From Eledone cirrhosa (taxonomy: Eukaryota): DNA of 64,000 nucleotides. This document shows positions 1,423 to 32,979 of the stretch, in pieces. The notes beneath the pieces were generated by a model. The model saw only the letters and a list, made by a program, of their open reading frames with translations, was not told the origin of the DNA and made no database searches. Position 1 is the stretch's first letter. Each line of letters begins with the position of its first letter. A program made the position numbers and the translations under genes. The stretch covers positions 43,276,001 through 43,340,000 of the forward strand of contig OZ024747.1 of the NCBI GenBank assembly GCA_964016885.1, in the 5' to 3' direction.

Positions 1423-1756
1423 TATATATGAATTAAAAATATGTAAAAATAAACTCTGATGACGCTGATTTTGAAGCAATTCCCGATGGTCTCAGTATAA
1501 AACATATGTAAATTTTAGAAAAGCAGTTTTTGAAAAATTAGAAAAATTTTTTTTAGAAAATAAAAAAATGTTTAAATATGTAACTATACAACCCTGAGAT
1601 GAAGTTCGATCGACTGAAAGACGTGTTAGTTTGAAAACTCATTGATTCTTTGGTGTTTTTTATGAATATTATAGATCAGCTCTGCATGAAGCTTAGAGCT
1701 TTCTGGTAAAGTTTCATCCTAATAATAACAATACTGTTATTAATATTATATATATA

Positions 1757-1965
1757 TTTCGTTTCTGAATTTGTTTAGCAAGATTCTTTATCTGAAATCG
1801 TGTGTTGAAACCGATATTGTTATACTTTGGGAGGGTCATGTTGCCAACCAGAAATTTATAAATTTATAAATTTGTAAATTTATAAATATATAATAAATTG
1901 AAGTGAAAGCAGCTGGTGCGTGTGTTTCTTATTGGCAACATGACCCTCCCAAAGTATAACAATAT
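1757..1965. mobile_element. Short fold-back copy of a TA-targeting terminal repeat (PLE pLTR-like family B)
   Basis: 34-bp inverted repeat 1814-1847/1932-1965. Same sequence as 4909-5453 with the centre missing. Flanked by (TA)n. Confidence 0.65.
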
Positions 1966-2133
1966 TATATATATATATAGAAAGGGTAGCACACTAGAGA
2001 GAGCGGGTGCGTGTGCCATCAATAAAACAGGGAGACCACCAGTGTATGGAATCTATAACCTATGGAAGGCAGGGTAGATACACAATAATTAAAAATATAA
2101 ATTAAAATGCGTATACGCACCTCTAAAACTATA

Positions 2134-2226
2134 TAACACACACGTGCAAATCCAAAAAGAGATCTGTTTCACCAAGAAATTATTGACTGAAATGGAAGCA
2201 CCTATGGTTCATCAGCGTGTGTGTTA
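2134..2226 (-). ncRNA. Type I hammerhead ribozyme motif with one core substitution (U16.1 to C)
   Basis: Minus strand: TAACACACACG CTGATGA ACCA..TGGT GAAA CAGATCT..GGATTTG C A CGTGTGTGTTA. Stem I 11 bp, stem II 4 bp, stem III about 7 bp. Triplet is GCA rather than GUA. Confidence 0.75.
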
Positions 2227-2552
2227 ATTTACAAATCTGCAGACTCAATTTCCGGGCCCCCTTTAAAATATGTAGTGACCCATACCATTCACTGAAATCA
2301 TACTAAACATTTTTCCCGAGGGCCGGAACCCCCCCCCCCCCCTGTACATACCCCCTGAAGTTGAGAATGGTCGAAAAGAAGGAAAAGTCCGCTATTATTG
2401 CACCTATACTCGATATTTTTTCGTCACAAGGGGGGTTTTGGGGGTCGATAAACTCATTTATGGTATTGTTTTTGCATTACGACCATCCAATATGCCAGAA
2501 ATCCAGGATGCCGGATATGGGAAACTGTTATTGGACCAACTATATTGACTAA

Positions 2553-3227
2553 CTAGCAGTAAAGCCCGGCGTTGCTCGGGGTCGCTCAGTAGCTGTGTTA
2601 AAGTTACAATGTTAAGTTTCTTTTTTGGCTTAAAGTCTGTCTGCACGACTGTCTGTCTGCACGACTGTCTGTCTGCACGCCTAACGAAATTTACAGATAC
2701 ATATATTTTAAATAAACTTATATAATTTTTGCTTTTTTTTACGAAATATTTGCTTGTTTTACGTAGTCTTTAAATAGACTTGTTTTCAAGTAAAAATATT
2801 GTTTTAAAAGGCTTTTAAATGGAAATGAAGCAAAACGGAAGCTTAGTGTTCGAACTGATGAATTTTGCAGGTCAAAATTTTGCTGGCTCGACAACTGTTC
2901 GTGTATTGTGTTAATGTCATTTTAAACGCTGAGAAAGTCAGCGTAATTTTTTTAATTTTTGCACGCAGAAAATGTAAACAGAACGTAAGACGCTCAATGT
3001 AAACAGAACAAAGGGAAATAACTCGTCACTTACGCTCAAAAATCGATACATTAGATTCGATTTCGTCACATAGGGTGGGTCAATTTGAAATATTTTTTTC
3101 CGATGTCTTCGCTAGGGCTCAATGTACAAGTATAGCAATTTCGGTGCAATTCCGTCAGAGATTCTAAGAGGAGATGTGTGCCAAAAATCGATAGACAGAC
3201 AGACAACCACAGCTTTATATATATAGA
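2553..3227 (-). mobile_element. Non-autonomous Helitron
   Basis: Minus strand starts TCTATATATATAAAGC and ends with GC-rich hairpin CCCGAGCAACGCCGGG then CTAG. It sits between A and T with no TSD and contains internal (GTCT)n-type repeats at about 2635-2680 and 3194-3205. Confidence 0.8.
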
Positions 3228-3346
3228 TATATCATTTTTCATGAATGGCATATTTTAAACGCATTTCCGAAGACAAAATGAGCTTAACTCTAGTCTATGG
3301 CTTGAAAAAATTATTATGCATGATTCATTGGTACATTATCATTGGT

Positions 3347-4300
3347 TTATTTTAAATTATAATTGTTCAACAAGTGATCTAAAGCATCTTTAAAGTCCTG
3401 AACAGTAGCATCCGCTTTGCAGCTGACTTTCTCCAGATAAACCCTTAGATTTCGCACGTAAGTATCCACATCTAGTTTCTGATAATTCCTTTTCAGTTTT
3501 AAAACGTCGCTTGTTTTTGGTATCGATAGCGAAGTGTCCCTTGCATATCTAATTTCTAAATACAACCTTTCTATTTTATCTGTTTCCGAAGCTGTATCGC
3601 TCTCCATATATGTATCTATCTTCTCCTTTTTAGTGAAAGGACCACCTACAGATTTTAGATAATCAAGGTCCTTGTTTCGTCGCTTGTCGGTGGCGATATT
3701 GGCATCTTCCTTGGTTGCGAGGCCTTCGCGTGTCAACTCCTCCTGTCTTACAGTCCATGCTTTCATAATTTCAGGTATTTGGCCGCCTTTTCTAACCAAC
3801 TTCCTGTATTTGACGAAAGACCCCGATTCATTTTCGATCAGGTCTTTAGCCTTCATCTTTACTTGAGATGAAGAAGCGGCAGCCAATTGTTTCGCGCCTC
3901 GGCGAGTCAATTTGTAATTAATAAAGCCCACGCCTCTTTCTGAATCGAGGTTGTGAATAGGCGCTTTTTCAAGTTTGGCAGTGTCTATCTTTGATAAGGC
4001 GTATGGAGAATCGCGAGCTTCTCCAAATCCGAATATGTCGCCCTTTTGCTTCTGGAAGCCATCACCCAACTTTGGTAAGAGTACCTTTATGACTTTGAGT
4101 ACATCATCTCTCAACTCGCAGGTCGCCGCATTTATCGCATCGCACATTTCGTCATCATATCGGATCTGTCTGAAACGTTCTTCTGATACGAAACTCAAAG
4201 CTGGTTGGTCGGTAGATAATAATTTGCTGGGATCAATATGTATCAAATCGTCGTATATCTTATTGAATGTTATCGCCAGTTTGGGATAGCCCGTCGCTTG
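3347..4300 (-). pseudogene. 5'-truncated C-terminal part of a probable DDE transposase (superfamily unassigned)
   Basis: Stop-free, protein-like frame. It extends upstream of the TTG at 4246 (QATGYPKLAITFNKIYDDLIH) to the foot of the palindrome at 4302. Motif APIHNLDSERGVG resembles the catalytic-Glu region of DDE transposases. No ATG start. Family assignment is from recall only. Confidence 0.6.
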
Positions 4301-4780: not shown

Positions 4781-5497
<717 letters not shown>

Positions 5498-29133: not shown

Positions 29134-32100
29134 GATGGTATCAAGAAAGCTAATAATATATTAGTATCAAATTAGCAAGTAAAATATTTACAATAACAAG
29201 CAAGTTACTCAAAGAGAAAATAGAGTTTAATTATAATATCAAATTCATGAGGAATCTCATTGAATTATAAAGCTATTAACAAGTTTCAGTAATCCCAAAG
29301 GATGAGATTCTAAGAGTTAAAGAAAGCTGAAGCTATAACTGTTGTGTGTGGTTTTCATTGACAATTATTGTGGAATAAAGAACACCAAACATGTTGTTAT
29401 ATCAGATGATTTAATAGATATTAATCTAATTATAATACTTGAAATGTTTCAACAAAAGTCGTCGAGTTATTTTCACATATTAACGAAATAGAATTTGTTG
29501 TTTTGGTCAAGACAAATACTTGTATGAGAAATATTGGTTATAATATTGGTATAAAATTAAATACTAACAAAGCAATGGCTCAACTCCTGCTGAGAAAAAC
29601 TTCTCTGGGCAACTGCTTCATTAGTATGTTGGTTTTATTAATGTAATTATTTGTTCTATCTAAGCCAACCACTTGCATTCATGTTTACAGATATTGTCTG
29701 TGTTTACTGAAGGATTTCCATTGACATTGCCTACTTACATTCAGTTTTACATACATTTCCCCTTATTTATTGCAGATATGTTTCTGTGTGTCTTATGGAA
29801 GGTTTCCTTTGCTTTCAGGTTAGTCAATTATTCATGTCTGCTTCACTCAGTTTATTTAAGCCTTCGGCCAGTTCATGTTTCCTCTCATTAATTAAAAGAA
29901 AAATGTACTCTATTCACAAAACTTTATTATTCTTATTAGGATATCATTACTCTTATAAGAATTGATAACCAGATTATTGAAAAGACCAGACAGATATATT
30001 CTAGAATCTACTAGCAACAGAATAATGCTTTCCAGTTGTTTAAATATACAGTACATTTATAGGCCAGACAACTGGGTTATATTAACAATTAGTTTTCGCC
30101 AAAGAGCTCAAACAATAAATACCATCCAAATTGGTGGGCAAACTAACTAGAATCACTTTACAATTTACAATATACACTAATCAAAATAAAGCTAGACATT
30201 ATGCAGTAACTGGCCAATTGCTGGCAATAAATGAGTATAATTTTCTGCATTCAGGGAATGTATTTCCATTTTTTAAGAACTCTTGATTTGGGATAGAAAT
30301 TCTTTTAAAGCAAACTGATGAAGTTTTGAGTTAGTGAAGAGCTAATTATATCAGTCTAATTGTACATGTTTATTTGTTCAAGATCAGTTGGTACAAAGCA
30401 TGTTATTTAGGTATTTAACTCTAGAATATCAAAACTCTTTCTATGGTGTAGATAAAAGATAGTGTGTCGAATATCTCTCAACTTAGCAGTTTTAATTTAT
30501 ATTGTTCAGTTATAGTATTATAATTTAATTATTGCACTCGAGTGAAAGTTTTATCCCATTTATTGGTCATGTAAATTAGTTATTTTTAATCATATATATC
30601 CTGGTTTTAGTAAAAGTGCACTGTGTCCCTGCATGTTATAAGAGTTGGTGATAGGAAAGGTATCTAACCATAAAACTCTGCATCAAAAATCCTATTAAGC
30701 CCATGCCAGCATAGATGGAAACAGAATGATAGGAATTCTGCTAGAAGATGATCAATTATATCCTAAAGACACTTGTGGATCTCAATATAATTCTTGTGAT
30801 TCAGTCTGAAAGAACAAGGCAGGACAAAATGAAACTTTATTTGAAACAAAGAAAGCTGTTTCTTTTCAATAAGTATTTAATTAAAGAAAATTCTCATGCT
30901 ATTTGCAAATTCCCCCAGTCTGAAGAAGTCAATGGAGGCTCATGTTCAGTACAACTGGATTTAGGCGTAAGCTTAAACAAGCTACAGTTTAGAATCTCTC
31001 AATGTGCTGCAGCTTAACATTTTTTTTTTCTTGAATAAAAAGAAAAAGAAAATTGCTGCATCGTGCTCATTTCTGCTTTTTTTTCTTTTCTCTCTCTACA
31101 CTTCTCTCATTCCTCAACATATGCTTTAGACTCTCTTTCTTTCATTCTTTCTCCCCTTTTTTGATCATTCTTCCAATCTCATGGGGTTATATTTCAACAG
31201 AACTTTTGGTATGCTTAATAGCTGCTGGCTATTTTCCCAGCTTCTTCCATGATTGAGATACCTACAATTTTGTGATATTTCTCATACACCCATCACTTTA
31301 ATCCTGTTTAGAATAATGTATATATTTACAATTTTTGTGAAAGCTTTTGGTGTATTTTTTTATAAACAAAAAGCCCCCAAGCTTTATATAGCTAAGGGCA
31401 CCATCAGATCTAAATCCAGCACTGTCTAGAGAGATGAAAGACAAAGTTGACCTCAGTACTTGATTGAATACAAGCAGTATATAAAAAAAGACAAGTAACT
31501 AAATACAGCAAAGTATTTTGTCCCAATACTCCACCCTTATCACCTTATCAATTCTGTCATTCACCACTCTCTCATCAATAATAATAACAATACCATTCAC
31601 CATTGTCATAATAGCATCAAAAGAATATCATAGCTGGCAGTATGCCAGTTCTTTTGTCAACAGAGCTGCCCTCTTTTCTACTCTATCATATTATCTAGGT
31701 CATTGCATATGGATAATCCAGATTCATAGAATAATAAAAGTATTTTCCTTTTGATCTTCTCATCAAATGACTCCTTATGAGTGTGTGTGATTAATCAGTC
31801 AACTGTAATAATCAACCATAATGTTTGTGAGACAGGCCATAATATTTCAGCCACCTTCCCTAGGTACCTCCCTTTACAAGAAGGTTGTTAGTTCTACTTG
31901 ATTGCTCTGAACATTGACTAAATATATCACTGTTAATTTTACATTATAGAAAGCAAGCAAATAAGTGTTGGCAAAGCATTTAAATGAAGTTACGATTAAA
32001 TTACTGTAATTAATTTGAATATACAAACATTATATATATATATATAAGTACTTAATACATTAACAGAGAAAGCTTTTAGCGATACTCCGACCAACTCCCA

Positions 32101-32235
32101 TCTCACTCAACAAACATTAGGATATACCTGAGTATAATCCCAATTATGCGTTCAGGGTGTTAACTATATTGTATTTCGTGGATAGTTGGCTGTATTATTT
32201 TATATGAGACATAATTAAATAAATCTCTCTTTCTT

Positions 32236-32357
32236 TCCATACGATCGTTTCGTTATAAGATTTCTACAAGGTGGGAAAATAATGTCCAAGTTATGTAGAA
32301 GCTTGCATATAATCCATAGATATCCATGCAAGAAGGCCCTTATAACTCATCAGTGGA
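32236..32357 (-). ncRNA. Type I hammerhead ribozyme, canonical core, branched stem II
   Basis: Minus strand: TCCA CTGATGA GTTATAAG [79 nt] CTTATAAC GAA ACGATCGT A TGGA. GUA cleavage triplet; palindromic stem III as in minimal PLE hammerheads. Confidence 0.8.
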
Positions 32358-32358
32358 T

Positions 32359-32581
32359 TATATATATAAGTATAAAGAAAGTGCTCAAGCACAGACATGC
32401 TATTAAGATAGCTTATAAAATAGGGTGAAGACCCTTAGAAGATAGAAAAAGAAGTTGCCATTGGCTTGCTATGAAGAATTGAACTCCATATTTTTCGTTT
32501 TTTAAGGGTCTTTACCCTATTTTATAAGCTATCTTTATATCATTTCTGTGCTTGAGCACTTTCTTTATACTTATATATATA
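32359..32581. repeat. Imperfect inverted repeat, about 78-bp arms, abutting the hammerhead
   Basis: 32359-32437 versus 32503-32581 (AAGTATAAAGAAAGTGCTCAAGCACAGA / TCTGTGCTTGAGCACTTTCTTTATACTT). Confidence 0.88.
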
Positions 32582-32586
32582 TGATG

Positions 32587-32618
<32 letters not shown>

Positions 32619-32979
32619 GTGTGTGTGTGTATATATATGTGTGTGTGTGTGCAAACCCCTTTAAAAGAACTATATTATGTAAATTAATTACAGAGATTTA
32701 CTAGGTGGTTAAACCAATGTCATCAGTTACACTAACATTTCCCTGTAGTATATATTTTAATACCACTTTAGCATTTATTTATTCAATAAAAAATATTTCA
32801 TCTTCTCTTCAGGGATGATAAATCTGGTGGGATGATAAAGATAAGGCAGTGGTGGGGGAAAATATTTAAATACTCAGTCAAACATTTTCCATTCTTTTCT
32901 TCTGAAATAATGATAATCTACTTTTTGTTTGATGTTTTAATTTTTTTTTTCTTGTTTATTTTTATATAACAATAAATGA

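What the first reader, a model, noticed from the sequence alone, without database searches (positions are those of the whole stretch)
32236..32357. Intact hammerhead ribozyme whose stem II opens into a two-hairpin branched domain
Seen (minus strand): complete core (CUGAUGA, G10.1-C11.1, GAAA, GUA), 8-bp stem II, palindromic stem III ACGAUCGU, 4-bp stem I. The 79-nt stem II insert folds into TTGCAT/ATGCAA and TTCTACA/TGTAGAA hairpins. It lies between a 78-bp-arm fold-back and about 190 nt of unique sequence ending in (TA)n, with no ORF nearby. Known: minimal PLE hammerheads with palindromic stem III act as dimers and usually have short stem II loops. Inference: an unusual hammerhead architecture from an unannotated PLE or retrozyme family.
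Basis: partly seen in the sequence, partly recalled or inferred. Interest (0 to 1): 0.75.

Follow-up and report, generated by a model that had tools for sequence, protein, structure and literature searches.

The report
Long-armed hammerhead in Penelope-type repeat
This is a complete hammerhead (self-cutting RNA) motif with an unusually large two-hairpin side arm, lying in a cut-down copy of a very abundant non-coding jumping repeat that likely borrows the enzymes of Penelope-like retrotransposons; the motif and its host are of known kinds, the big arm is a new variant, and cutting is predicted but untested.

Summary
My descriptor hits it once in the window; 200 shuffles gave 1 loose and 0 strict hits.

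It is not an isolated oddity. It is the ribozyme module of a 5'-truncated copy (32030-32358) of a 733-bp non-coding retroposon (F1). F1 gave 1,564-3,804 first-look candidates in the 3.0-Gb genome, by query. F1 has a constant 3' end with a (TA)n tail, variable 5' truncation and (TA)n targets. All 5 full-length loci follow a partial head-to-tail copy, a Penelope-like (PLE) signature.

A sister family (F2, about 996 bp) keeps the core, both hairpins and the palindromic helix III through compensatory changes. Three unrelated families have the same layout. One (F4) encodes a Hydra-clade PLE reverse transcriptase-endonuclease.

Published Hydra-clade hammerheads match in everything except helix II: 3-7 bp plus a 3-10 nt loop there, 8 bp plus 79 nt here.

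The fold-back is an unrelated MITE, and the "unique" 190 nt is the element's tail. Cleavage is untested, and no RNA run was listed. The 5' ends of copies cluster just 3' of the predicted cut. Verdict: a new variant of a known kind.

The parts
32030..32358 (-). 5'-truncated copy of the 733-bp non-coding retroposon F1 (unit positions 404-733), including its TA tail
   Evidence: blastn of the full unit (L028:1098-1830) against the window: unit 404-731 = window 32358-32031, 95.4% identity. This is the only F1 copy in the window.
32236..32357 (-). type I hammerhead motif (helix I open)
   Evidence: sequence; the MFE fold equals the proposed fold; only descriptor hit in the window; shuffles
32354..32357 (-). 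helix I, 5' strand UCCA
   Evidence: pairs with UGGA 32239-32236; invariant in 10 of 10 aligned F1/F2 copies
32347..32353 (-). core strand C3-A9, CUGAUGA
   Evidence: kept in F1, F2, F3, F4 and F5; position 7, which is free in hammerheads, is C in an F2 subgroup (3 copies)
32339..32346 (-). helix II, 5' arm GUUAUAAG (G10.1 first)
   Evidence: 8 bp with 32259-32252; 7 of 8 pairs invariant between F1 and F2. The 10.1/11.1 pair is G-C in this copy, A.C in 7 of 30 F1 copies and U.U in F2.
32260..32338 (-). 79-nt insert in helix II: two hairpins joined by short linkers
   Evidence: MFE fold; the same two-hairpin domain is present in sister family F2
32302..32332 (-). hairpin a (7-bp stem CUUGCAU/AUGCAAG, 17-nt loop)
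   Evidence: two pairs change on both sides between F1 and F2 (U-A to C-G, G-C to A-U). By my reading of A1 a third (C-G to A-U) appears if one alignment gap is moved; as run scores that pair as unpaired in 5 of 10 sequences.
32262..32300 (-). hairpin b (7-bp stem UUCUACA/UGUAGAA, 25-nt loop)
   Evidence: MFE fold; stem sequence identical in F1 and F2, so no covariation
32252..32259 (-). helix II, 3' arm CUUAUAAC (C11.1 last)
32248..32251 (-). core strand G12 A13 A14 A15.1
   Evidence: kept in F1-F5
32241..32248 (-). palindromic helix III ACGAUCGU (A15.1 to U16.1), loopless as a monomer
   Evidence: F2 has ACAAUUGU, a G-C to A-U change on both sides that keeps the palindrome (5 versus 5 sequences). 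F3-F5 have ACUAAUUAGU, ACACGUGU and ACGUACGU.
32239..32240 (-). predicted cleavage site: after A17 (32240), before U1.1 (32239)
   Evidence: position by hammerhead numbering (inference). H17 is A in F1 and U in F2. The 5' ends of F1 copies cluster at unit 521-541, where U1.1 = 523.
32236..32239 (-). helix I, 3' strand UGGA
32051..32235 (-). 3' part of the retroposon, ending ...GUUAAUGUAUUAAG
   Evidence: shared by all F1 copies; 73% identical to the F2 tail region
32030..32050 (-). TA-rich tail or target microsatellite
   Evidence: nearly all F1 copies listed end in (TA)n

Best explanation
The 122-nt segment is a sequence-complete type I hammerhead motif inside a 5'-truncated copy of a 733-bp non-coding retroposon (family F1), which is likely copied by Hydra-clade Penelope-like (PLE) enzymes; in transcripts of source copies the motif is predicted to cut the RNA after GUA.

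Shown directly:
- the motif and its fold;
- the family structure: a constant 3' end with a (TA)n tail, insertion into (TA)n, variable 5' truncation, and every full-length copy preceded head-to-tail by a partial copy;
- conservation of the whole architecture in a sister family (F2) through paired changes.

Inferred mechanism:
1. Helix III is an 8-nt palindrome with no loop, so one motif cannot close it. Two motifs, either two units of one transcript or two transcripts, would pair through it to make an extended helix III and two active sites, as proposed for PLE hammerheads.
2. Cutting would leave a 5'-OH at U1.1 and would trim longer-than-unit transcripts to unit length.
3. Such RNA, linear or re-ligated to a circle, would be reverse-transcribed from a (TA)n nick by a PLE reverse transcriptase/GIY-YIG endonuclease supplied in trans. 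That would give the partial tandems seen.
4. The 79-nt two-hairpin domain replaces the usual 3-10 nt loop of helix II. It is kept by selection, at least in hairpin a. It most likely acts as a stabilising scaffold or protein-binding handle, not as part of the catalytic core. This last point is the weakest inference.

The window copy stands alone and lacks everything 5' of the motif, so it is most likely an inert product and not a source copy.
For: Motif and chance.

Family:
- 2,408 first-look candidates for the motif region, and 40 of 40 scored at 94-100% identity. The tail queries gave 3,804 and 1,564 candidates.
- Constant 3' end ...GTATTAAG(TA)n and scattered 5' ends, many directly after (TA)n.
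- Five distinct full-length loci (L005=L140, L027, L028=L147=L170, L151=L189, L190). All 5 are preceded by the 3' end of another copy.

Sister family F2 (707 candidates), unit about 996 bp:
- The 5 F2 loci that reach furthest upstream, of 30, are partial tandems, some with two complete motifs.
- Between L028 (F1) and L075 (F2), identity is 56% in the 200 nt upstream, 95% in helix I + core + helix II 5' arm, 74% in the insert, 83% in the 3' 24 nt and 73% downstream.
- On 30 base pairs, 94.7% of cells pair, against 35-47% with slid partners. Three pairs change on both sides: two in hairpin a and one in helix III.
- By my reading of A1, every family-level difference in a helical column lies in a pair whose partner also differs. 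One of these pairs, in hairpin a, is standard in F2 only if an alignment gap is moved.

Same architecture elsewhere:
- 55 descriptor sites in 375,581 nt of fetched loci, against a mean of 0.1 in 20 shuffles. Forty-nine are F1/F2, which I had selected. Six hits at 5 distinct sites, in 3 further families, were not selected.
- F4: 810 candidates, with 40 full-length matches all 100% identical plus one partial match at 99%. The motif lies 45 nt before (TA)n.
- The upstream F4 ORF resembles the Hydra-1_Obim protein motif by motif, by eye. Atlas neighbours carry RVT_1, HTH_animal and GIY-YIG. BLASTP of the endonuclease region against a PLE ORF of this genome gives E 1e-4.
- F5: 443 candidates, many head-to-head inverted pairs.

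Published Hydra-clade hammerheads share helix I of 3-11 nt per strand (mostly 4-7), helix III ac..gt of 3-4 bp with a 0-3 nt loop, G..C or U..U flanking helix II, a position near the 3' end and (TA)n targets.

5' ends:
- 8 of 30 F1 copies sampled by unit 547-716 start at unit 521-541, where the cut is at 523.
- In the sample by unit 640-716, 5 of 30 start in these 21 nt, against 4-5 in the next 99 nt and 6 in the preceding 117 nt. By my arithmetic this is binomial p of about 0.01.

The unit-length RNA from cut site to cut site (L028:912-1619) folds with z -4.3, and 0 of 20 shuffles fold as well.
Against: - No cleavage data exist. No RNA run was listed, so expression, RNA ends and circles could not be examined.
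- No hammerhead family of Rfam matches, at gathering score in the window or at E up to 10 around the site. This carries little weight: a short Hydra-type hammerhead used as a control (L064) was also missed at E up to 1.
- The 10.1/11.1 pair, the most conserved helix pair of canonical hammerheads, is not kept. A subgroup of F1 (7 of 30 copies, on different chromosomes) has an uncompensated A.C. F2 has U.U. F3-F5 have C.A, A.A and U.U. So families amplify without it. U.U is tolerated in natural hammerheads by the passages read and is common in Hydra-clade motifs.
- Helix I is only 4 bp, and I found no loop-loop contact.
- PLE hammerheads cleaved poorly in vitro, and only as dimers or with a lengthened helix III (passages of PMC4209133).
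- In the F2 sample no 5' end lies exactly at the cut (0 of 30). In F1 one junction (L135=L172, blast boundary unit 521) is ambiguous over the TA dinucleotide and would allow it; the other seven lie 4-18 nt downstream. That fits reverse-transcriptase stalling at the folded motif as well as cleavage.
- No autonomous partner sharing sequence with F1 was found among 30 GIY-YIG loci and 5 long PLE loci.
- The F1/F2 comparison is two lineages, so each covarying pair is one evolutionary event.
Confidence: 0.72

Rival explanations
1. A hammerhead-derived structural relic. The motif descends from a PLE hammerhead but no longer cuts. It is kept because the folded domain (helix II arm, palindrome) serves another step, such as recognition by the reverse transcriptase or RNA dimerisation.
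For: Families amplify with A.C, U.U, A.A or C.A at 10.1/11.1. The large insert removes any standard loop II contact. PLE hammerheads cut poorly in vitro (passages). Craig et al. note that hammerhead-free Naiads proliferate well (passages). The 5' ends cluster a few nt after the motif and at most one ambiguous junction lies on the cut, as expected for stalling at a structure.
Against: The catalytic letters have no pairing role, yet C3-A9, G12-A14 and U16.1 H17 are identical in five families whose other sequence cannot be aligned. The positions that do vary are the ones hammerheads leave free: N7 is U or C, and H17 is A, U or C. U.U at 10.1/11.1 supports cleavage in natural examples (passages).
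Confidence: 0.2
2. A classical animal retrozyme. The element lives mainly as long tandem arrays that are transcribed, self-cut and circularised, and the dispersed copies are by-products.
For: Non-coding unit with a type I hammerhead. The unit size (733 and about 996 bp) is within the 51-972 bp range or just above it (preprint 10.64898/2026.07.22.740005, Results). The unit-length RNA is well folded. Retrozymes are argued there to be PLE derivatives, so this overlaps the best explanation.
Against: Only partial tandems of up to about 1.5 units were seen. No array of 3 or more units occurred among the roughly 100 F1/F2 loci fetched across the five sampling calls, several of them the same place fetched twice. 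Most copies are solitary and 5'-truncated with a fixed 3' end, which points to target-primed copying from a defined 3' site. Circles could not be tested.
Confidence: 0.05
3. A chance match. An AT-rich repeat happens to contain CUGAUGA ... GAAA with complementary flanks, and it looks conserved only because the copies are young.
For: The motif is simple. By my rough estimate the strict descriptor would occur about 0.3 times in 6 Gb of random sequence, so one case in a very large scan is not impossible. Copies within F1 are 94-100% identical and by themselves say nothing about selection.
Against: Sister family F2 keeps it, with paired changes and with higher identity than its flanks. Three unrelated families place the same motif at the same distance class from a (TA)n tail. 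The shuffles give 0.1 expected sites against 55 observed, of which 6 were unselected. One carrier is a PLE, the element class known to carry hammerheads.
Confidence: 0.03

Closest known systems
Hammerheads of Hydra-clade C-terminal EN+ Penelope-like elements (Craig et al. 2021, PMC8557442; File S2 table and Hydra sheet of File S1 read, main-text passages)
   Same: Type I motif. Helix I of 4 bp (for example atgg/ccat). Core ctgaNga. A G..C or U..U pair flanking a helix II of up to 7 bp. gaa + 'ac..gt' helix III of 3-4 bp with a 0-3 nt loop, so nearly palindromic. A, U or C at the cut. Position near the 3' end of an element that inserts into (TA)n.
   Different: Published helix II is 3-7 bp closed by a 3-10 nt loop. 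Here it is 8 bp closed by 79 nt that fold into two hairpins. Helix III is a perfect 8-nt palindrome with no loop. The carrier has no ORF.
Minimal hammerheads of metazoan PLE pseudo-LTRs (Cervera and de la Pena 2014, PMC4209133; passages read)
   Same: Long helix II (7-8 bp), short helix I (4-5 bp), palindromic 15.2-16.2 or helix III, proposed action as dimers, thousands of dispersed copies.
   Different: Those motifs are minimal (small loop II, often no helix III at all) and usually have an unpaired base between A9 and 10.1 plus a conserved G10.1-C11.1. Here there is no extra base in the window copy, a large branched arm, and a variable 10.1/11.1.
Animal non-LTR retrozymes (Cervera and de la Pena 2020, PMC7229834, passages; Li, Clavereau and Pollet 2026 preprint 10.64898/2026.07.22.740005, abstract and Results part 1)
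   Same: Non-coding, AT-rich, hammerhead-bearing, non-autonomous retroelements that co-occur with PLEs and are related to their pLTRs. Monomer copies are common.
   Different: Retrozymes are defined by tandem repeats and canonical type I motifs, often with loop-loop contacts. F1 is mostly solitary and 5'-truncated, with at most about 1.5-unit partial tandems, and its motif is of the PLE kind with a giant helix II.
PLE-X1 hammerheads of spike mosses (PLE-X1_sMoe, PLE-X1_sTam; File S2 of PMC8557442)
   Same: The longest loop II in that table (35 and 29 nt), marked there as deviating from the canonical structure. This shows that PLE hammerheads can tolerate a longer arm.
   Different: Plant EN-minus elements inserted in 28S rDNA. 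The loops are less than half as long. Branching and palindromic helix III of the kind seen here are not indicated.

Membership tests
Hammerhead ribozyme (type I) | Conserved core C3 U4 G5 A6 N7 G8 A9 ... G12 A13 A14 | tested here: met
   CUGAUGA 32353-32347 and GAA 32251-32249; kept in F1-F5
Hammerhead ribozyme (type I) | A15.1-U16.1 pair and a non-G residue 17 before the cut | tested here: met
   A 32248, U 32241, A17 32240; H17 is A, U or C across families
Hammerhead ribozyme (type I) | Three helices around the core, with helix I open-ended | tested here: met
   MFE fold; 94.7% of cells paired on 30 pairs. Helix III closes only between two copies (8-nt palindrome, no loop).
Hammerhead ribozyme (type I) | G10.1-C11.1 at the base of helix II | tested here: inconclusive
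   Present in the window copy; A.C in 7 of 30 F1 copies; U.U in F2; mismatches in F3-F5
Hammerhead ribozyme (type I) | Tertiary contact between helix I and loop II | not testable with these tools
   No standard loop II exists; no contact was evident by eye
Hammerhead ribozyme (type I) | Match to an Rfam hammerhead covariance model | tested here: not met
   0 matches at gathering score; none at E up to 10 in 31900-32700. The short Hydra-type control in L064 was also missed, so this test has little power.
Hammerhead ribozyme (type I) | Site-specific self-cleavage | not testable with these tools
   Needs a bench assay or RNA end mapping; no RNA run was listed
Hydra-clade / PLE pseudo-LTR hammerheads | Lies near the 3' end of an element that inserts into (TA)n and forms partial tandems or inverted pairs | tested here: met
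   Motif at unit 405-526 of 733; (TA)n at both ends of copies; 5 of 5 full-length loci are tandem
Hydra-clade / PLE pseudo-LTR hammerheads | Short helix I and a short, near-palindromic helix III (ac..gt) | tested here: met
   UCCA/UGGA and ACGAUCGU, compared with File S2
Hydra-clade / PLE pseudo-LTR hammerheads | Compact helix II (3-8 bp with a loop of about 3-10 nt) | tested here: not met
   8 bp + 79 nt against File S2
Hydra-clade / PLE pseudo-LTR hammerheads | Carried by an element that encodes RT and GIY-YIG endonuclease | tested here: not met
   F1 and F2 units have no long ORF. Family F4 with the same motif design does encode one. No sequence link from F1 to an autonomous element was found.
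Animal non-LTR retrozymes | Non-coding unit with a type I hammerhead | tested here: met
Animal non-LTR retrozymes | Head-to-tail tandem repeats of the unit | tested here: inconclusive
   Only partial tandems of up to about 1.5 units; most copies are solitary
Animal non-LTR retrozymes | Expressed as unit-length circular RNA | not testable with these tools
   No RNA run listed

The most novel reading that the evidence does not exclude
The branched 79-nt arm is a selected, functional addition that defines a structural subclass of hammerheads ('long-armed' PLE hammerheads). These cut in vivo as palindrome-joined dimers, leave their mark in the 5' ends of genomic copies, and have escaped all descriptor-based and Rfam-based censuses. 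If so, hammerhead numbers in invertebrate genomes are substantially undercounted.
Probability: 0.3. Interest if true: 0.65.

Novelty: new variant of a known kind. Interest (0 to 1): 0.5.

Why it matters
Hammerheads in Penelope-like elements and retrozymes are known, but their role is still open. Published censuses use descriptors with short helix II loops. Here the same core carries an arm about ten times longer, in thousands of copies and several families of one genome. The arm has been kept through compensatory changes.

If these motifs cut, three things follow:
- Hammerhead counts in animal genomes are too low.
- Helix II can host a whole folded domain, which is useful for ribozyme engineering and suggests protein or regulatory handles.
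- The clustered 5' ends of copies offer a genomic read-out of where the RNA template ends.

If they do not cut, they are a case of a ribozyme fold kept for another job in retrotransposition.

Tried and rejected
- RNA evidence: the look-up of sequencing runs listed 3 runs of one study, kind unknown, kept as contigs, each holding 0.47-0.49 of the words; no RNA holder was listed. I did not lay them, because contigs cannot show RNA ends.
- Rfam: no hammerhead hit. The short control was missed too.
- Autonomous partner of F1: a GIY-YIG (PF01541) search gave 10,596 candidates. The F1 unit matched the 30 loci fetched and 5 longer PLE loci only in TA-rich stretches. tblastn with PLE ORFs found no coding remnant beside F1/F2 copies apart from an unrelated fragment in L075.
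- Pfam found nothing in the F4 ORF at E up to 0.01, and only noise at E up to 10.
- A 75%-identical tail copy in L017 was followed upstream for an ORF and none was found. It led instead to sister family F2.
- Craig et al. supplement searched for F1 words: 0 hits. F4 peptide words: 0 hits.
- Pfam on 10 window ORFs: nothing. Those from 34 kb onward belong to a 51-bp satellite.
- Homodimer cofolding did not return the simple helix III duplex for F1; it preferred swapped hairpins. It did return palindrome pairing for F2. I do not count this either way.
- A pseudoknot between the loop of hairpin b and the 3' strand of helix I was considered by eye. It is not kept in F2, so I dropped it.
- Literature searches for a natural hammerhead with a long or branched helix II found none beyond the 29-35 nt loops in File S2.
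Full report
**1. The observation**

On the minus strand the window reads UCCA-CUGAUGA-GUUAUAAG-(79 nt)-CUUAUAAC-GAAA-CGAUCG-UA|UGGA at 32357-32236.

- The predicted cut lies between 32240 and 32239.
- The minimum-free-energy fold of 32230-32365 reproduces helix I, helix II and both hairpins (-28.8 kcal/mol; z -1.99; 7 of 200 shuffles fold as well).
- A descriptor I wrote (CUGANGA, helix II, GAAA, a palindrome beginning at A15.1, H17, helix I) finds this site and no other on either strand of the window.
- In 200 dinucleotide-preserving shuffles of the window its loose form hit once in all and its strict form never.
- Rfam finds no hammerhead. A short hammerhead of the published Hydra type in locus L064 was missed as well, so this negative says little.

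**2. What the segment belongs to**

The motif region has 2,408 first-look candidates in the window's own 3.0-Gb genome, and all 40 scored are 94-100% identical. Queries from the 3' tail gave 3,804 and 1,564 candidates.

- Thirty loci with 1.5-kb flanks share one 3' end, ...GTTAATGTATTAAG followed by (TA)n.
- Their 5' ends are scattered, and many come directly after (TA)n.
- The full unit is 733 bp (L028:1098-1830) and has no long ORF.
- The window copy covers unit 404-731 (window 32358-32031, 95.4%). It is cut off one base before helix I.
- Over three samples I saw five distinct full-length loci. All five are directly preceded by the 3' end of another copy, with the junction ...GTATTAAGT|ATTATACTCTTGG.

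A constant 3' end, variable 5' truncation, (TA)n targets and partial head-to-tail copies are the insertion signature described for Penelope-like elements (passages of PMC8557442).

- The 190 nt of "unique" sequence is the element's tail.
- The fold-back is a separate MITE-like family with 2,035 candidates at 72-96% identity over full or partial matches. It sits in the TA repeat next to the truncated copy.

**3. Is the motif under selection?**

Copies within F1 are too alike to tell. A diverged tail copy in L017 led to a sister family, F2. It has 707 candidates, a unit of about 996 bp, the same kind of 5' and 3' ends, and partial tandems in the five loci that reach furthest upstream. F2 carries the homologous motif UCCA-CUGAUGA-UUUAUAAG-(80 nt)-CUUAUAAU-GAAA-CAAUUG-UU|UGGA.

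| Segment, L028 (F1) vs L075 (F2) | Identity |
|---|---|
| 200 nt upstream | 56% |
| helix I + core + helix II 5' arm | 95% |
| helix II insert | 74% |
| 3' 24 nt | 83% |
| tail | 73% |

On an alignment of five copies of each family, 94.7% of the cells of the 30 proposed pairs are standard pairs, against 35-47% when partners are slid. Three pairs change on both sides:
- U-A to C-G in hairpin a;
- G-C to A-U in hairpin a;
- G-C to A-U in helix III, which turns ACGAUCGU into ACAAUUGU and keeps the palindrome.

A third pair of hairpin a does the same (C-G to A-U) if one alignment gap is moved. As run, scores that pair as unpaired in 5 of 10 sequences. The 10.1/11.1 pair changes on both sides too, but to U.U.

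By my reading of the alignment, no helical column carries a family-level change without a change in its partner. This is one divergence between two lineages, so it counts as a handful of events, not many. Hairpin b is identical in stem sequence, so it is neither supported nor contradicted. Position 7 (free in hammerheads) varies within F2, and residue 17 is A in F1 and U in F2.

**4. The design recurs, and one carrier is a PLE**

Over the 99 loci then in hand (375,581 nt), a slightly looser descriptor found 55 sites, all with a palindrome of 8 nt or more, against a mean of 0.1 in 20 shuffles. Forty-nine are F1/F2, which I had selected. Six hits, at five distinct sites, lie in flanks I had not selected and belong to three other families.

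| Family | Helix II loop | Helix III | Notes |
|---|---|---|---|
| F3 | about 40 nt | ACUAAUUAGU | two inverted copies in L018; family status not tested |
| F4 | about 75 nt | ACACGUGU | see below |
| F5 | about 80 nt | ACGUACGU | 443 candidates; many head-to-head inverted pairs |

In each family the motif lies 45-125 nt before a (TA)n tail.

F4 has 810 candidates. Forty full-length matches are 100% identical and one partial match is 99%. Upstream of its motif is an ORF (599 aa in L131).
- Shown: the ORF has a YRDD motif, a C-rich linker and a C-terminal segment. I read that segment as GIY-YIG-like.
- By eye it matches the Hydra-1_Obim protein printed in the supplement of PMC8557442 block by block.
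- Its Atlas neighbours carry RVT_1, HTH_animal and GIY-YIG (scores 0.95-0.98).
- Its endonuclease block aligns with a PLE ORF of this genome at E 1e-4.
- Pfam itself gave nothing.

So at least one Hydra-clade PLE of this genome carries a long-armed hammerhead at its 3' end.

**5. Comparison with what is published**

File S2 of Craig et al. 2021 tabulates Hydra-clade hammerheads:
- helix I of 3-11 nt per strand, mostly 4-7 (often atgg/ccat);
- ctgaNga;
- a flanking U..U or G..C;
- helix II of 3-7 bp with a loop of 3-10 nt;
- gaa;
- helix III "ac..gt" of 3-4 bp with a 0-3 nt loop;
- a, t or c at the cut;
- elements of about 1.1-3.0 kb (complete ones about 2.1-2.7 kb), with (TA)n targets where one is given.

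The window motif agrees in every respect except helix II, which is 8 bp closed by 79 nt in two hairpins, and helix III, which has no loop at all. The longest loop II in that table is 35 nt, in a spike-moss element flagged there as deviating.

- Cervera and de la Pena 2014 describe PLE motifs with a 7-8 bp helix II, a 4-5 bp helix I and a palindromic helix III. These are proposed to act as dimers and cleave only weakly in vitro (passages).
- A 2026 preprint argues that animal retrozymes are non-autonomous PLE derivatives, with units of 51-972 bp and monomer shares from 0 to 1.
- My six literature searches for a long or branched helix II found nothing further.
Any tables there that bear on arm length were not seen.

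**6. How it most likely works**

Shown: the motif, its conservation and the PLE-type insertion pattern. Inferred: the steps below.
1. Because helix III is a loopless palindrome, one motif cannot fold it. Two motifs would pair to give an extended helix III and two active sites.
2. The two motifs would lie in one longer-than-unit transcript (F2 loci L092 and L098 hold two complete motifs about 1 kb apart) or in two RNAs.
3. Cutting after GUA would give unit-length RNA.
4. A PLE enzyme supplied in trans would copy that RNA from a nick in (TA)n, starting at the TA-rich unit junction.
5. Copying a circular or multimeric template past one unit would give the partial tandems seen.

The arm's role is unknown. 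Conservation of hairpin a by paired changes argues that it is not junk. I favour a scaffold or protein handle.

**7. A genomic trace of the cut?**

- In F1 copies sampled by unit 547-716, 8 of 30 have their 5' junction at unit 521-541, where U1.1 = 523.
- In copies sampled by unit 640-716, so that both sides of the site are visible, 5 of 30 lie in those 21 nt. That compares with 4-5 in the following 99 nt (one junction unresolved) and 6 in the preceding 117 nt. This is about a five-fold excess, with p near 0.01 by my own binomial arithmetic. The two samples overlap.
- In F2, 7 of 30 junctions lie 6-23 nt after the cut and none lies exactly on it.

In F1 one junction (blast boundary unit 521) is ambiguous over TA and would allow the cut itself; the rest are a few nt downstream. 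Stalling of the reverse transcriptase at the folded motif explains the cluster as well as cleavage does. I count it as support for a folded or processed RNA at this place, not as proof of cutting.

**8. What speaks against activity**

- A subgroup of F1 (7 of 30 copies, on different chromosomes) has an uncompensated A.C at 10.1/11.1.
- F2 has U.U, and F3-F5 have mismatches there.
- Helix I is short and no loop-loop contact is visible.
- No RNA data could be had.
- I found no autonomous partner sharing sequence with F1.

**9. Verdict**

The window copy is a truncated, probably inert copy of a non-autonomous element of PLE type. Its hammerhead is a genuine, selected member of the PLE (Hydra-type) hammerhead group and differs by a very large, branched helix II. 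That is a new variant of a known kind.

Earlier notes of this scan on the same genome had reached similar readings for other windows. They pointed me to File S2, but they are not independent evidence.

Noticed in passing
window 32378-32563 (arms 32359-32449 / 32491-32581): The fold-back beside the hammerhead is a MITE-like inverted-repeat element of its own family (2,035 first-look candidates; full or partial matches 72-96% identical). It is inserted in the TA repeat and is unrelated to the retroposon.
   Followed up: yes
window 34091-64000: A satellite array of a 51-bp unit, about 587 copies, 94% matches, running off the window end. Because 51 is a multiple of 3, it produces long open frames in several frames, none with a Pfam match.
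   Followed up: partly
window 5136-5164 (-), with a long hairpin at about 5165-5260: CUGAUGAG-GUCACA-GAAUG-UGUGAC-GAAA, a hammerhead-like core with an extra base after A9 and a 6-bp helix II. It lies directly 3' of a roughly 40-bp-arm hairpin. Helices I and III do not fit a standard type I or type III layout by eye.
   Followed up: no
L067-L099 (for example L099:8027-9390): Sister family F2: non-coding unit of about 996 bp, 707 candidates, homologous long-armed hammerhead with U.U at 10.1/11.1 and helix III ACAAUUGU, partial tandems, and the same style of 5' and 3' ends as F1.
   Followed up: yes
L109:1511-1690; L130:6424-7545; L131:1158-2954 (-): Family F4: very young (40 full-length matches all 100% identical over 141 nt, plus one partial at 99%). 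It is a Hydra-clade-like PLE whose 3' UTR ends in a hammerhead with a helix II loop of about 75 nt, helix III ACACGUGU and A.A at 10.1/11.1, 45 nt before (TA)n. Minus/plus inverted pairs lie 1.3-3.4 kb apart.
   Followed up: partly
L071:1953-2245; L118-L129: Family F5: 443 candidates. A hammerhead with a helix II loop of about 80 nt and helix III ACGUACGU, about 57 nt before (TA)n. It very often occurs as head-to-head inverted pairs truncated about 10 nt upstream of the motif.
   Followed up: partly
L018:1917-1987 (-) and 2401-2471 (+): Family F3: a hammerhead-like motif with a helix II loop of about 40 nt and a 10-nt palindrome ACUAAUUAGU. The plus-strand copy is flanked by a roughly 110-nt inverted repeat that would extend helix I into a long rod. 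Copy number was not tested.
   Followed up: no
L064 and L065, about 390-410 nt after the PLE ORF stop: A short hammerhead of the published Hydra type (CUGAAGA-U-UGC-GAAA-GCA-U-GAAA-GUAC-UU|GUUC) downstream of an RT-containing ORF. Rfam misses it at E up to 1.
   Followed up: partly
whole genome G000: At least 10,596 first-look candidates for the GIY-YIG domain, 150 of 150 scored above the Pfam cut-off, several inside ORFs of 840-1,096 aa with an RT motif. The genome is very rich in PLEs.
   Followed up: partly
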